From assembly GCF_009914755.1 (NCBI RefSeq), contig NC_060929.1: 64,000 bases of DNA. One strand, 5' to 3'. This DNA comes from the human T2T-CHM13v2.0 reference genome, Homo sapiens. Positions 11,288-24,555 of this stretch are shown piece by piece. A program made the translations under genes and the position numbers. Each line of letters opens with the position of its first letter. Within the stretch, counting starts at the first letter, position 1. The notes below the pieces were generated by a model. The model had not been told where the DNA came from and searched no databases. It saw nothing but the letters and a program-made list of their open reading frames with translations.

Positions 11288-11330
11288 GGCTCTGAAACGT
11301 TCTGCGTTTGCCTTTGGCAAAGAAAGTGCA

Positions 11331-11450
11331 TAGTACAAGACTGCGTCCCCAGTCAATTTATTGTCTGTCTTTGAGGAAATGAATAATTTCTAACAATCAG
11401 ATAGAGAATGCCTAATAATGGCATATCGTGAAACTAAATGTTTCCAATGC
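11331..11450 (-). promoter_or_regulatory. IL5: IL5 proximal promoter: TATA-like box, CLE0, double GATA, NFAT (IL-5P)
   Basis: TSS ~11331; AATAAATT at 11362-11355; CLE0 ATTATTCATTTCCTC at 11387-11373; adjacent GATA sites CAATC/AGATAG at 11394-11404; TGGAAA at 11446-11441. Matches known IL5 promoter architecture. Confidence 0.9.
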
Positions 11451-11819
11451 CTTATATCTTAAAAAATAAATTTACTTTTATCTTTTAATAATAAAAATCC
11501 CTGTTTCCCCCCTTTAAAAACATTTTCTATTACGAAGAATCTTTGGGTTAATACATCATTGCCCCACATTTGCATTTCTTAAAATCAGAAAATTAACTTC
11601 CTCTTAAAAGATGTGTGCAAAACAAAGTATAAGGTAGACCACTAAACAGAATTTTATGCTAAAATACATAAATATTGGGAATGTTTTTTTCAGATCGGCT
11701 ATGTTCTACTATGACTGTGGCTAGATTAATCTGTCTTAAAAGAAATTGAAAATACTGGTGGGAAGACAGTGATTGAAATGGAAACTGCCAAGCCTTGGCA
11801 GGGTCGAGTTCTGTTCACT

Positions 11820-12300
11820 GGGGTCTTGATTAGGATCCTTTCTGTTGCCAGTGACTAAAAACCTAACCTAAAGTTGTTGAAGATAAAGAGGGAAGGTATT
11901 GGCTCATAGAACCAAACAGTCCAGGAATGGAGGCTCTTTTACATTTTGATGGCTTCAGTGACTCTTCCTTGACTCCATCCTTGGGCACCTTTCCCATTGA
12001 GGTCTCAAGATGATGTCCAGACTCCTGGATCTGTATGTATTCTGTTCATGAGCAGCAGGAAAAAGCAAGCTGTGCTTTTCTGATTGTTTAATCAAAAGCT
12101 TTCAAATTCAGTCTCTTTCTGACAAGGGTCACATGTTCATCCTTGAACTGTGACCAGGGTGTAGTATATACTGATTGGCTCTCCCTGGAGCTAGAGGTGA
12201 CCCTAATCCTACCTCAACTGCATAGCTTAGAAATGTGGGGTCCCAGTAGTAAGGGGGACACAGATTCTAGGAAGGCAACCAATAAATATCTGTCACAGAT
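11820..12300. mobile_element. Old MaLR LTR (MLT1K/L-like) upstream of IL5
   Basis: Diverged MLT1-type motifs (GGATCCTTTCTGTTGCCAGTGAC, GGGTCACATGTTCATCCTTGAAC, CTGATTGGCT); boundaries approximate. Confidence 0.5.
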
Positions 12301-13179
12301 ACATAATACATGGATGTGTCCTCTCCTTTATGTCCCATAAGGGTGGAGGTGTCCTTTCACACCTTGGGCGGGCCATGAAATTAGGGGAATCAGCCTTTGT
12401 TCCTTAGGCTCAGACCTGTAATCCCAGAAAGGTACAAATGAGGCCCCCTCCTAGATCACACACTTCCTTTTTCCCTGGCCTGAACACATATGATGGAGGT
12501 GTATGTGGCTCATTGTTTTTAATAGAGTGCTTCAGTGAGCATCCCAGAGTGGCTCTATGTTGCAGCCTAGAAGCCTGACTTCAGGCCTGTCTTGAGCGTC
12601 AAGAACAGATGGTACCAAACACAAACTGTTGCCCAGAACAGTTTTCCAAAGCTAGGTGCAGTTGTGTAGGAGAAGTAGAGGCAGCTGGGAGGTAGACACA
12701 CCTTTCATACATACTCAATCCCAGCTCTGCACTGGAAAGATAAAGACAGTCTTGGATTTCAGTGGCGGCCTTCTTGTACCACGTTTGGTTTTGTTTGTGC
12801 TGAAGTTTTGGACTCTTGGTTAGATGTGTCTGATTTGCGCACTTGAGAAATGTTTTCCTTGAGAAATGTTTCCTTGAGACTGCAGAAGTTTGGCTCACTT
12901 CAGAAAATCTATCGGGAGTGAGATTTTCGGGAGTAGGAATCACAATAGGCTTGGTCAAAGTGCTCTTAAAATGGTATTCTCAGAAAAGAAGCTGAGTTCT
13001 GGCAGGAGCTTTCTCTTCCCAGAGAATATGAGAGCGTTCTCTCTGATTCCCCCTGACACCTTTATGTTACACTGAGGAAGTTAGGGCTTAGGTGAAAGTT
13101 TCAGGGGAATTGCCAAATAACTTGTTATTTTAGTACCTTAAATACACAAAGTTCTGAGTGCTTAAATTCTATCATAGGA

Positions 13180-13785
13180 GGCTGGGCAAGGTGGCTCATG
13201 CTTGTAATCCCAGCACTTTGGGAGGCTGAAGCAGAAGGATTGCTTGAGCCCAGGAGTTTGAGACCAGCCCAGGCAACATAGTGAGACTCCATCTCTAGAA
13301 AAAATAAAAAATTGGGCTAAACACAGTGGCTCACGCCTGTAATCCCAGCACTTTGGTAAGCCCAGGCAGTGGATCCCTTGAGCCCAGGAGTTCAAGACCA
13401 GTGAGTGAAATGGGCAGGGTGTAATACATCAAAGCTGGTGGGGGTCACATGAAACTATAGCATGCATGATCTGTCTAAAGGTGGCAGGTGCTGCTCAGCT
13501 CCAGCTGATGGTTGCCAGGTGACACACCTGGGCTCACATTACCCGATCATTCTGTTTTTCAAAGAAGCCTTTATAAAAATTAGCCAGGCGTGGTGGTGTG
13601 TGCCTGTAATCCCAGTTACTCGGGAGGCTGAGGCAGGAGAATTGCTTGAACTCAGGAGGCGGAGGTTGCAGTGAGCTGAGGTTGCACCACTGCACTCCAG
13701 CCTGCGCAAGAGAGTGAGACTGTCTCAAAACAAACAAACAAACAAAAAAACAAAAAGCACAACAACAACAACAACAACAAAAAAG
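13180..13785 (+). mobile_element. Alu fragments (monomers and a separate right arm)
   Basis: Alu consensus pieces at ~13180-13400 and ~13573-13785. Confidence 0.85.
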
Positions 13786-21769: not shown

Positions 21770-21891
21770 GGTCTTGGTGGTTTACACAAATGTTTATATT
21801 TGCCAAAACACATGGAATTGTACCCTGGAAAAGGGTGAATTTTACTGTATGTTAATTATGCTTCAATAAATCTGACTTAAAAAATGGTCTT

Positions 21892-22190
21892 GGCCAGGCG
21901 CAGTGGCTCACACCTGTAATCCCAGCACTTTGGGAGGCCGAGGCGGGTGGATCACAAGGTTAGGAGTTCGAGACCAGCTTGACCAACATGGTGAAACCCC
22001 GTCTCTACTAAAAATACAAAAAATTAGCCAGGTGTGGTGCCACGTGCCTGTAATCCCAGCTACTCAGGAGGCTGAGGCAGAAGAATCACTTGAACGCGGG
22101 AGATGGAGGTTGCAGTGAGCCAAGATCGCACCATTGCACTCCAGTCTGGGTGACAGAGTGAGACTCCATCTCAAAAAAAAAAAAAAAAAA
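21892..22190 (+). mobile_element. AluS
   Basis: Full Alu with A tail. Confidence 0.95.
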
Positions 22191-22196
22191 AGTCTC

Positions 22197-23665
22197 CACT
22201 TGAATAGTCAATTATTCAAAGATACACAAATGGCCAATAAACACATGAAATGATGCTACTAATAATTATTGAAATGCAAATCAAAATTACAATGAGGTAT
22301 CACTTCACACTCATCAGGATGGCTACCATAAAAAAACATAAAATAACAAGTGTTGGCAAGCATATGTAGAAATTGAAACCCTTATGCACTATTGGTGGGA
22401 ATGTCAAATGGTACAACCACTGTGGAAAACAGTATGGCAGTTCCTCAAATAATTAAAAATTGAATTACTGTATGATCTAATAATTCCACTTCTGGGTATA
22501 TACCCAAAAGAATTGAAAGCAGGGTCCAGAAGTGACATTTGTACACCAATATATATAGCCACACTATTCACAATAGCTAAAATGTGAAAGTAACCCAAAT
22601 GTCCATCAATAGATGGATAAGCAAAATGTGATGTGTATTGTAATGAATCTTATTCAACCTTAAAAACGACCTGAATTCTGATATATGCTACAGTGGTCCC
22701 CAACCTTTTTGGCACCAGGGACCAGTCTCACGGAAGACAGTTTTTCCACAGACAGGAGTGGGGTGATGGTTTTGGGATGAAACTGTTCGACCTCACATCA
22801 TCAGGCATTAGATTCTCATAAGGAATGGGCAAGCTAGATCCCTTGCATGGGGCAACCTACATCTTTCTCATGGGCAGTTCAAAATACGGTTTGTGCTCCT
22901 ATGAGAATCTAATGCCCCCACTGATCTGAGGCCCAGCTCGGGTGGTAATGTTCACTCACCTGCTGCTCACCTCCTACTGTGCCACCAGGTTCCTAACAGG
23001 CCAGGTATGCATACTGGTCAGTGACCCAGGGGTTGGGGACTGAGCTGCAACATGGATGAACCTTGAGGACATTATAAGTGAAATGAGCCAGTCACAAAAA
23101 GATAAATACTGTATGATTCCACTTATATGAGGTACTTAGTAAAAAATTATAGAGACAGTAAGTAGAATGTTGGTTGTCAGGGTTTGGAGGATGTGGGGAG
23201 GAAAGGGTTATTGTTTAATGGGTAGTTTGTTTTGCAAAGTGAAAAGATTTGTAGAGGTTGAAAGGTGGTGACGGTTGTACGTGAGTATACTTAACACCAC
23301 TGAAATGTACACTTGGTTAAGATAGTAAATTCTTTTTGAGACGGAGTCTCGCTCTGTTGCCCAGGCTGGAGTGCAGTGGTGCGGTCTCGGCTCACTGCAA
23401 GCTCCGCCTCCCGGGTTCATGCCATACTCCTGCCTCAGCCTCCTGAGTAGCTGGGACCATCGGCGCCTGCCACCATGCCCGGCTAATTTTTTGTGTTTTC
23501 AGTAGAGACGGGGTTTCACCGTGTTAGCCAGGATGGTCTTGATTTCCTGACCTCGTGATCCACCCGTCTCGGCCTCCCAAAGTGCTGGGATTACAGGCGT
23601 GAGCCACCGCGCCTGGCCAAGACAGTAAATTTTATGTGTATTTTACAATTTTTAAAATAAAAAAA
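22197..23665 (+). mobile_element. L1MA/MB 3' fragment carrying nested MER1 (~22691-23042) and antisense AluY (23332-23618)
   Basis: ORF2 C-terminal and 3'UTR L1 motifs; MER1 terminus CAGTGGTCCCCAACCTTTTTGGCACCAGGGACC; Alu TSD AAGA(T/C)AGTAAATT. Confidence 0.85.
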
Positions 23666-24204
23666 GGTCTTTCGTCTTTTCCCATTGTTTTATTACATTT
23701 GCTTTGCCAAGTAAGACATTCCTATATAATTTTAATGTTTTGTTCCATTAGTTATTTTAACTATTTTGTAATAACTGACACTTTCCGGTTTTTTTAACCT
23801 GGTACAGCAAGAGACTATTTCTCACTGGTCTTCCCCACTTGCATCCTTTGGCACATACATTTATGTATTAGGTTCTGTAAATTATTTGCTTGGGATTGTA
23901 TGACTGGAGAAACATTTCCTACATTTTTCCAAGGCAGGCAGAGGCAAATTATACCACTACAGTAATTCCAAATTTGTGTTTCATTTAAATGTCCTCCACT
24001 ATTGTTTCAGTAATTTTTATGTATGTTTCTCTAGGCCCTTAAATGTGATATCCCTCCATTAAGTTTGTTTCCAAGAAAGCAATATTCTCAGTTACTTCTG
24101 AGACAGGTAACTTCTCTTTCCCTTATTTTTAAAGATATCTATTGCTGGGAGCACTGATCGGAATGGATTACCTCTACATTCTTCATATTTGCAGACTGCT
24201 TTTA

Positions 24205-24555
24205 GTTTTAGTTCCCAGACTTTTGGTCTTAAAGACGCCTTTACACTAAAAAATTACGGGGGACCTCAAAGAGCGTGTACGTGAGTTATAATTATCAACA
24301 TTTACTCAATTAGAAATTAAAATTGGTATTTCTAAGCGCAAGAATACACATGCGCACATTCCATTAACCGCCACTGCAATGGCGTCATCACATGTTATGT
24401 GATCACTGGAAATTACTACACGAACGTTAGAGAGAGAATGAGAATGAAAAGGAAAATAGTTTTGACATGAACTGACCCCGCTTCCTGGGTCTCCAATCCA
24501 CCCCACCACTACCCCCATTCCAGGAGTCCCAGGATCAAGCTTTGGGAAGCGCCAT
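24205..24555. mobile_element. Charlie1-like hAT DNA transposon remnant abutting the RAD50 CpG island
   Basis: TTCCCAGACTTTTGGTCT...CCTTTACACTAAAAAATTA and AAAATAGTTTTGAC...CTTTGGGAAGCGC resemble Charlie1 ends. Confidence 0.55.

What the first reader, a model, noticed from the sequence alone, without database searches (positions are those of the whole stretch)
11288..24518. In-frame splice route from the antisense side of the RAD50 promoter into IL5
Seen: on the - strand just outside the RAD50 CpG island, ATG at 24518 opens 14 codons (MGVVVGWIGDPGSG) ending in a phase-0 donor GGG|GTCAGT (exon end 24477). In the IL5 5'UTR there is an acceptor CTTTCTTTGCCAAAG| (AG at 11313-11312) followed by exactly 24 nt (ANAERFRA) in frame with the IL5 ATG. 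Splicing predicts a 156-aa IL-5 with a 22-aa N-terminal extension. Because all IL5 introns are phase 0, joining to exon 2 (10935) would give an in-frame, signal-less IL-5. The upstream exon appears to lie in the end of a Charlie1-like transposon. Established: ETS/GABP and NRF1 CpG-island promoters are often bidirectional. Inference: a housekeeping DNA-repair promoter could drive low, Th2-independent IL5 transcripts. An extended IL5 model may already be annotated; I cannot verify that here.
Basis: partly seen in the sequence, partly recalled or inferred. Interest (0 to 1): 0.72.

Follow-up and report, generated by a model that had tools for sequence, protein, structure and literature searches.

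The report
Annotated upstream IL5 exon at RAD50 promoter
The predicted splice route from the back of the RAD50 promoter into the IL5 gene is real in the sequence and is already in the RefSeq gene models, but its in-frame reading is what chance would often give and it probably marks a minor by-product transcript, not a new kind of IL-5.

Summary
The - strand ATG at 24518 opens 14 codons ending at GGG|gtcagt (exon end 24477). The acceptor ccaaag|GCAAAC starts an exon at 11311, 24 nt upstream of the IL5 ATG and in frame with it. All IL5 introns are phase 0, and the joined frame is 156 codons.

Both boundaries equal the RefSeq alternative IL5 exons in the hub's table (24477-24695/24701 and 11144-11311), so the route is already annotated. 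The alternative start lies 78-84 bp from the RAD50 start, head to head, in one CpG island.

The in-frame reading is weak evidence: 1601 of 5000 shuffles of the exon give one. Two short upstream reading frames precede ATG 24518. A third annotated exon (22960-23061) breaks the frame.

The 22 extra residues would sit ahead of an intact signal peptide, so mature IL-5 would probably be unchanged.

Ten paper searches found no description of the exon. I could not see expression data. Most likely it is a low-level divergent transcript.

The parts
24477..24701 (-). Alternative first exon of IL5 (RefSeq starts at 24701 and 24695), 225 or 219 nt
   Evidence: Hub annotation. Boundaries read. As a whole it has no second match in the genome (only the self match).
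24588..24611 (-). Upstream reading frame 1: ATG 24611, 7 codons and a stop, same frame as ATG 24518, context G at -3 and G at +4
24535..24555 (-). Upstream reading frame 2: ATG 24555, 6 codons and a stop, at the mapped end of the repeat
24477..24518 (-). The 14 codons MGVVVGWIGDPGSG opened by ATG 24518 (context ggaATGG), open to the exon end, phase 0
24471..24476 (-). Donor gtcagt after GGG. It is weak by a recalled matrix (1.28 bits) but within the range of the RAD50 donors.
24203..24555 (-). Fossil of an old interspersed repeat with a shared terminal motif. It covers the last ~80 nt of the exon, the donor and the first ~270 nt of the intron.
   Evidence: A profile built from 6 other genomic copies hits 24555-24203 with E 1.1e-47. 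18 other copies at 68-80% identity. Terminal motif shared by 4 of 6 copies, with unrelated flanks.
24500..25100 (.). CpG island shared by the RAD50 start and the antisense IL5 start
   Evidence: GC 0.67, CpG o/e 0.71, 47 CpG; GC profile
24625..24632 (+). Exact CCGGAAGT (ETS/GABP-type) site
24689..24696 (+). Second exact CCGGAAGT site, overlapping the 24695 start
24780..25256 (+). RAD50 exon 1; its start is 78-84 bp from the antisense IL5 starts
   Evidence: hub annotation
22960..23061 (-). Optional annotated 102-nt exon (acceptor cctcaag|, donor CAG|gtgagt, 8.3 bits). It lies in a very abundant repeat and puts a stop in the 24518 frame.
11288..11311 (-). 24-nt linker (ANAERFRA) between the internal acceptor and the IL5 ATG. 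It is open only in the IL5 frame among the frames that matter here.
11144..11311 (-). IL5 exon 1 as used by the upstream-start transcripts. The internal acceptor lies 20 nt inside the canonical exon 1 (11144-11331).
   Evidence: hub annotation
10903..10935 (-). IL5 exon 2 (33 nt, phase 0 on both sides)
9824..9952 (-). IL5 exon 3 (129 nt), Pfam IL5 profile positions 39-81
9254..9718 (-). IL5 exon 4 (coding 9620-9718), Pfam IL5 profile positions 82-112

Best explanation
This is an already annotated alternative 5' end of IL5.

How the transcript arises.
- RNA polymerase II starting in the antisense direction from the RAD50 CpG-island promoter (24695/24701, 78-84 bp from the RAD50 start) makes a 219/225-nt first exon.
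- The 3' third of that exon comes from the end of an ancient transposon fossil. This part holds the ATG at 24518 and the 5' splice site at 24477.
- The splice site comes about 220 nt after the start, well before the first poly(A) hexamer on that strand (23736). I infer that this lets the antisense transcript be spliced instead of ending early.
- The 13,165-nt intron is removed to an acceptor inside the IL5 5'UTR (11311). In some models the route goes through a 102-nt repeat-derived exon (23061-22960).

What the product is.
- It is an IL5 mRNA with a long leader carrying two or more short upstream reading frames.
- The in-frame 22-codon extension is most likely a chance by-product.
- If it is translated, it lengthens the part of the signal peptide ahead of the hydrophobic core and would be removed with it.

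Shown: the sequence anatomy, the match to the annotation, the repeat origin and the chance rate. Inferred: low abundance, lack of a distinct protein function, and the splicing-versus-termination logic.
For: - Exon ends read from the sequence equal the RefSeq exons 24477-24695/24701 and 11144-11311 (hub table).
- Head-to-head starts are 78-84 bp apart.
- CpG island 24500-25100 (GC 0.67, o/e 0.71), no TATA match, two CCGGAAGT sites.
- The first AATAAA/ATTAAA on the - strand is at 23736, downstream of the donor.
- In-frame read-through occurs in 1601 of 5000 shuffles.
- Two upstream ATGs with short frames precede ATG 24518. The optional exon closes the frame after 36 codons.
- The donor is weak: 1.28 bits, with 54 of 698 GTs as good or better.
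- A profile of 6 other repeat copies covers 24555-24203 at E 1.1e-47.
- The hydrophobic core of the signal peptide is intact but starts at residue 26 instead of 4. The part ahead of it is 25 residues with net charge +1.
- No paper on such an isoform or on a RAD50/IL5 bidirectional promoter turned up. Searches gave 0 papers. Searches gave only papers that do not mention it, judged from passages for 6 of them and from listings for the rest.
Against: - I saw no expression, CAGE, junction or ribosome data, so 'low level' and 'by-product' are inferences from weak splice signals and silence in the literature.
- RefSeq built four non-selected models here. That implies some transcript support, whose depth and tissue I cannot see.
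- ATG 24518 has a strong context (G at -3, G at +4) and the two upstream frames are very short, so reinitiation at it is possible.
- 3 of 12 RAD50 acceptors in the window also have A at -3, so the AAG acceptor is not clearly weak.
- The RAD50 donors score as low as 0.55, so the donor score does not exclude efficient use.
Confidence: 0.72

Rival explanations
1. Functional alternative promoter. The housekeeping RAD50 promoter supplies a steady, Th2-independent trickle of translatable IL5 mRNA that adds to basal IL-5.
For: - The annotated start lies in the shared CpG island.
- In naive mouse T cells the Rad50 promoter is the only accessible site of the domain (PMC5334638, passage).
- The internal acceptor at 11311 removes the upstream ATG at 11331 of the canonical leader.
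- The canonical IL5 frame stays intact in all models.
Against: - The leader carries two to five upstream ATGs before the IL5 ATG.
- The donor is weak.
- No paper reports it (searches gave 0).
- No expression data were seen.
Confidence: 0.1
2. Distinct proteoform. The 156-residue product behaves differently from IL-5, for instance by poorer entry into the secretory pathway or by N-terminal lipid modification. Alternatively the exon-1-skipping route yields an intracellular 100-residue protein.
For: - The frame is open and ATG 24518 has a strong context.
- The N-terminus M-G-V-V-V-G-W fits the permissive PROSITE N-myristoylation pattern as I recall it (not tested by a tool).
- The hydrophobic core is moved from residue 4 to residue 26.
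- Cytokine precedent in IL1RN (PMC2192137, abstract).
Against: - The in-frame reading is expected in 32% of shuffles.
- The extension is partly repeat-derived.
- The signal peptide is left whole.
- The skipping product lacks Pfam IL5 positions 1-27 of 112 and would not be expected to fold as IL-5.
- No annotated exon demands that junction.
Confidence: 0.04
3. Regulatory transcription. The act of antisense transcription from the RAD50 promoter across the 13-kb spacer and the IL5 promoter matters (opening or interfering), and the spliced RNA is incidental.
For: In mouse Th2 cells, active marks reach from the 5' region of Rad50 to Il5. Th2-specific intergenic transcripts around Il5 fall together with IL-5 production under a drug (PMC3628909, abstract and passages).
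Against: - The mouse data give no strand or start.
- Nothing here links them to this human start.
- No test was possible.
Confidence: 0.08
4. Model artefact. The non-selected RefSeq models rest on very few or chimeric reads, and no such RNA is made in normal cells.
For: - The hub notes that predicted models can be wrong.
- The donor is weak.
- The literature is silent.
Against: - Two start variants, a shared donor, a shared acceptor and an optional exon with a near-consensus donor (8.3 bits) form a coherent set.
- All junctions have GT-AG signals.
Confidence: 0.06

Closest known systems
Head-to-head (bidirectional) CpG-island promoter pairs of human genes (definition recalled: opposite strands, starts under 1 kb apart)
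   Same: Starts 78-84 bp apart on opposite strands, one CpG island, no TATA match, two ETS/GABP-type sites.
   Different: The partner gene's main, tissue-restricted promoter lies 13 kb away. Only non-selected models use the shared promoter. Expression of the antisense start was not seen here.
IL1RN: intracellular versus secreted IL-1 receptor antagonist (PMC2192137, abstract read)
   Same: [quoted passage not shown] An optional extra exon lies between them and adds an in-frame N-terminal stretch.
   Different: From the abstract, the IL1RN forms are leaderless and mostly intracellular. In IL5 the internal acceptor is in the 5'UTR, 24 nt upstream of the ATG, so the signal peptide stays whole. 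The optional IL5 exon closes the frame.
IL-15 long and short signal-peptide isoforms (recalled, no call)
   Same: A cytokine whose alternative 5' exons change only the leader and not the mature protein.
   Different: The IL-15 isoforms are experimentally shown and differ in trafficking. For IL5 nothing is shown.
Upstream antisense RNAs / PROMPTs and the U1-poly(A) signal logic of promoter directionality (recalled)
   Same: Antisense initiation at a CpG-island promoter. A 5' splice site comes before the first poly(A) hexamer (24477 versus 23736).
   Different: Typical upstream antisense RNAs are short and unspliced. This one is modelled as spliced over 13 kb into a protein-coding gene.
Exon parts and splice sites recruited from transposable elements (general; PMC11846448 seen only as a search listing)
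   Same: The donor and the 3' part of the first exon lie in an old repeat. The optional exon, with its strong donor, lies in an abundant repeat.
   Different: The transcription start itself is in unique CpG-island sequence and not in the repeat.

Membership tests
Bidirectional (head-to-head) promoter pair | Two genes on opposite strands with starts less than 1 kb apart | tested here: met
   Annotated starts are 24701/24695 (-) and 24780 (+), leaving 78 or 84 bp between them. This rests on the hub's annotation for the starts.
Bidirectional (head-to-head) promoter pair | CpG island, TATA-less | tested here: met
   24500-25100 has GC 0.67 and CpG o/e 0.71. There is no TATAWA match in 24450-25000.
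Bidirectional (head-to-head) promoter pair | Measured initiation in both directions | not testable with these tools
Interleukin-5 gene (Pfam PF02025) | Exons encode the IL5 domain above Pfam's cut-off | tested here: met
   Exon 1 scores 31 bits (profile 1-27), exon 3 scores 72.4 bits (39-81) and exon 4 scores 59.2 bits (82-112), against a cut-off of 24.
N-terminally extended secreted isoform | Open frame from an upstream ATG through the junction into the canonical frame | tested here: met
   156 codons. The same happens in 1601 of 5000 shuffles.
N-terminally extended secreted isoform | Signal peptide still recognised and cleaved | tested here: inconclusive
   The hydrophobic core is intact but starts at residue 26 after a 25-residue stretch of net charge +1. 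No trained signal-peptide predictor is available. The joined protein could not be passed to other tools.
N-terminally extended secreted isoform | Evidence of translation or of the protein | not testable with these tools
   No ribosome profiling or proteomic data are available.
Transposon-derived exon part and splice donor | The donor lies inside a repeat copy defined by other genomic copies | tested here: met
   A profile from 6 other copies aligns to 24555-24203 at E 1.1e-47. The alignment around 24524-24506 and around the donor has low posterior probability.
hAT-Charlie ('Charlie1-like') DNA transposon | Match to the family consensus; terminal inverted repeats; 8-bp target duplication | tested here: inconclusive
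   - No repeat library is available.
- 4 of 6 copies share a terminal motif containing GTTCTCAA, with unrelated flanks.
- The opposite end carries a similar motif in reverse (read from the alignments).
- The repeat finder saw no terminal inverted pair in the window copy.
- The target duplication was not determined.
- The likeness to Charlie-type ends is my recollection only.
PROMPT / upstream antisense RNA | Short, unspliced, ended at an early poly(A) signal | tested here: not met
   The models are spliced. The donor at 24477 precedes the first poly(A) hexamer at 23736. Stability is not testable.

The most novel reading that the evidence does not exclude
The RAD50 housekeeping promoter gives a constitutive, lineage-independent supply of IL5 mRNA. 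Its upstream reading frames and extended leader set a low, perhaps stress-tuned, output of IL-5. That would couple a DNA-repair gene's promoter activity to basal eosinophil-supporting cytokine production outside Th2 and ILC2 cells.
Probability: 0.06. Interest if true: 0.6.

Novelty: already known. Interest (0 to 1): 0.25.

Why it matters
IL-5 is the main eosinophil cytokine and a drug target, and its expression is held to be tightly lineage-restricted. A second start in a housekeeping promoter would matter if it gave measurable IL-5 outside Th2/ILC2 cells. It would also matter if variants in the RAD50 promoter acted on IL5 through it.

The evidence here says that the structure is real and already in RefSeq. 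It also says that the in-frame extension carries little weight and that the extension would not alter mature IL-5. As it stands this is an annotation-level curiosity. It is a tidy example of a divergent promoter transcript captured by a transposon-derived splice donor.

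Tried and rejected
- window.fa carries no soft-masking, so repeat limits could not be read from letter case.
- The first look for the repeat gave the wrong picture. BLAST-type searches placed it only from 24458/24447 down to about 24211, outside the exon. 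The two longest copies shared only about 245 nt. The exon alone matched nothing else in the genome.
- The repeat finder found no terminal inverted repeats in 24180-24490, only internal short ones.
- No full NRF1 consensus was found with my pattern, only a TGCGCA palindrome at 24703-24708.
- Paper searches, 10 of 10 used:
  - 'IL5'+'RAD50'+'bidirectional promoter' gave 0.
  - 'interleukin-5 isoform X1' gave 0.
  - 'RAD50 promoter'+'bidirectional' gave 0.
  - 'RAD50 promoter'+'IL5' gave 3 papers, none on this exon.
  - 'RAD50'+'IL5'+'alternative promoter' gave 2 reviews, seen as listings only.
  - 'RAD50'+'bidirectional promoter'+'IL-5' gave 1 lncRNA review, listing only.
  - 'IL5'+'alternative first exon' gave 1 unrelated paper, listing only.
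  - 'AC116366'+'RAD50' gave 5 papers. In the two I read in passages, the clone-based names refer to CARINH or appear only in a network table.
  - A five-term search gave 3 unrelated papers, one checked in passages.
  - Supplements were not opened.
- I did not fold or search the joined 156-residue protein, because joined sequences may not be typed into other tools.

Full report
**Observation**

I read both ends of the proposed route on the - strand and recomputed everything from window.fa.
- The A of an ATG is at 24518. It opens 14 codons (MGVVVGWIGDPGSG) that run to GGG|gtcagt, so the exon ends at 24477 in phase 0.
- In the IL5 leader the string ctttctttgccaaag| has its AG at 11313-11312. The 24 nt that follow (ANAERFRA) are in frame with the IL5 ATG at 11287.
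- The coding parts of IL5 exons 1, 2 and 3 are 144, 33 and 129 nt, so all three introns are phase 0.
- Joining 24477 to 11311 gives a 156-codon frame (22 + 134). Joining 24477 to 10935 gives a 100-codon frame.

**Agreement with the annotation**

- All these exons have GT-AG signals.
- The intron from 24476 to 11312 is 13,165 nt. With the optional exon the two introns are 1,415 and 11,648 nt.

I cannot see whether the four non-selected models are curated or predicted, what their annotated coding parts are, or what reads support them.

**Is it more than chance?**

From the sequence alone, no.
- In 1601 of 5000 dinucleotide-preserving shuffles of the 225-nt exon, an ATG-opened frame also reads through the junction into the IL5 frame. 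14 of 40 real GTs between 24690 and 24001 would do so if used as donors.
- With a donor matrix built from frequencies I recalled, GGG|gtcagt scores 1.28 bits. 54 of 698 - strand GTs between 24701 and 11332 score at least as high.
- The 13 RAD50 donors in the window range from 0.55 to 7.61 and the three IL5 donors from 4.07 to 5.37.
- The acceptor has A at -3, as do 3 of 12 RAD50 acceptors in the window.

What lifts the route above chance is the exact match to independently built models, not the frame.

**The leader**

In the upstream exon two ATGs come before 24518.
- ATG 24611 has G at -3 and G at +4. It opens 7 codons and a stop, in the same frame as 24518.
- ATG 24555 opens 6 codons and a stop.
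- ATG 24518 itself has G at -3 and G at +4.
- If the optional exon 23061-22960 is included, the 24518 frame stops after 36 codons. Two more ATGs then appear, so the IL5 ATG becomes the sixth in the mRNA.

The internal acceptor at 11311 removes the ATG at 11331-11329. In the annotated longer leader (start 11364) that ATG opens a 15-codon frame overlapping the IL5 ATG.

**The promoter**

- The antisense starts are 78 and 84 bp from the RAD50 start at 24780.
- The stretch 24500-25100 has GC 0.67 and CpG o/e 0.71 (GC profile).
- Two exact CCGGAAGT sites lie at 24625 and 24689, the second across the 24695 start.
- There is no TATA match, and a CACGTG lies at the RAD50 start.
- My pattern found no full NRF1 consensus.
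- The first AATAAA/ATTAAA on the - strand is at 23736, 965 nt from the start and downstream of the donor.

By established knowledge (recalled), a 5' splice site ahead of the first poly(A) signal favours elongation of antisense promoter transcripts.

**The repeat**

- The exon alone matched only itself in the genome.
- BLAST-level similarity to 18 other copies (68-80% identity) ran only from 24458/24447 down to about 24211.
- The two longest copies shared only about 245 nt.

More sensitive searches reversed this. I fetched the 18 copies with flanks.
- nhmmer with the window sequence aligned three copies up to 24558, 24550 and 24545, and one up to 24493.
- To avoid circularity I built a profile from six other copies without the window sequence. 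It hits the window at 24555-24203 on the - strand with E 1.1e-47 and 156 bits.
- In the six-copy alignment, 4 of 6 copies share a terminal motif (containing GTTCTCAA) preceded by unrelated flanks. This marks the element's end, and it maps to about 24555.

So the last ~80 nt of the exon lie in the terminal part of an old repeat. This stretch includes ATG 24555, ATG 24518 and the donor. The start of the exon is unique CpG-island sequence.

Two cautions apply.
- The 19 nt around ATG 24518 (24524-24506) align as an insertion with low posterior probability.
- The alignment at the donor is also of low confidence. Read, 4 of 6 copies have a GT at the corresponding place and none has GTCAGT.

I could not name the family, because no repeat library is held. 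That the terminal motif looks like a Charlie-type end is my recollection only.

The optional exon lies in a much more abundant repeat. The first look gave 5270 candidates, of which 40 were scored, at 76-88% identity. The core of the match is window 23040-22866.

**The protein**

- Pfam confirms IL5 for the exons. Exon 1 carries profile positions 1-27, exon 3 carries 39-81 and exon 4 carries 82-112 of 112.
- In the 156-residue product the hydrophobic core of the signal peptide is unchanged but starts at residue 26 instead of 4. It follows a 25-residue stretch of net charge +1.
- The recalled cleavage site is after residue 19 of the canonical precursor. If it is still used, the extension is removed and mature IL-5 is identical.
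- So the route changes regulation (promoter and leader) and most likely not the cytokine.
- The exon-1-skipping product would lack both the signal peptide and profile positions 1-27. I would not expect it to fold as IL-5 (inference).

**Literature**

- Nothing describes this exon, a 156-residue IL-5 or a RAD50/IL5 bidirectional promoter. Searches gave 0 papers. Searches gave only unrelated papers.
- PMC5334638 (passage): in mouse, the Rad50 promoter is the only accessible site of the Th2 domain in naive T cells.
- PMC3628909 (abstract and passages): in Th2 cells, active histone marks reach from the 5' region of Rad50 to Il5, and Th2-specific intergenic transcripts around Il5 are reported, without strand or start.
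- PMC2192137 (abstract): the closest cytokine precedent is IL1RN. [quoted passage not shown]

The library misses most subscription journals, and I opened no supplements.

**Verdict**

The most likely reading (0.72) is a low-level divergent transcript of the RAD50 CpG-island promoter. It is captured by a transposon-derived donor and spliced into the IL5 leader. The in-frame extension is a chance by-product that would not change mature IL-5.

The rivals cannot be excluded without expression data. They are a functional constitutive promoter (0.10), regulatory transcription across the spacer (0.08), a model artefact (0.06) and a distinct proteoform (0.04).

Noticed in passing
window 11329-11364 (- strand): The canonical IL5 exon starts with ATG (11331-11329), at the very cap. 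In the annotated longer leader (start 11364) this ATG is 33 nt in and opens a 15-codon frame that overlaps the IL5 ATG out of frame. The internal acceptor at 11311 removes it.
   Followed up: partly
window 22866-23132 (- strand): The optional IL5 exon 23061-22960 and its near-consensus donor CAG|gtgagt lie in a very abundant repeat. There were 5270 first-look candidates in the genome, of which 40 were scored at 76-88% identity. The family was not named.
   Followed up: partly
window 56682-56688 (+ strand): The RAD50 exon ending at 56682 is followed by GCAAGT, a GC-AG intron and not a GT-AG one.
   Followed up: no
window 24498-24518 (- strand): The predicted N-terminus M-G-V-V-V-G-W fits the permissive N-myristoylation pattern as I recall it from PROSITE. 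No tool was used, and it is probably meaningless for a repeat-derived stretch.
   Followed up: no
window 24384-24406: A short near-palindrome (10-nt arms, 90% complementary, 3 nt apart) lies inside the repeat fossil in the first intron.
   Followed up: no
window 24779-24784: A palindromic CACGTG E-box sits exactly at the annotated RAD50 start.
   Followed up: no
PMC10359419, network table: A clone-based gene name, AC116366.2, appears as a node in a RAD50 protein-interaction network table. I could not find out what locus it names or whether it relates to the RAD50-IL5 interval.
   Followed up: no
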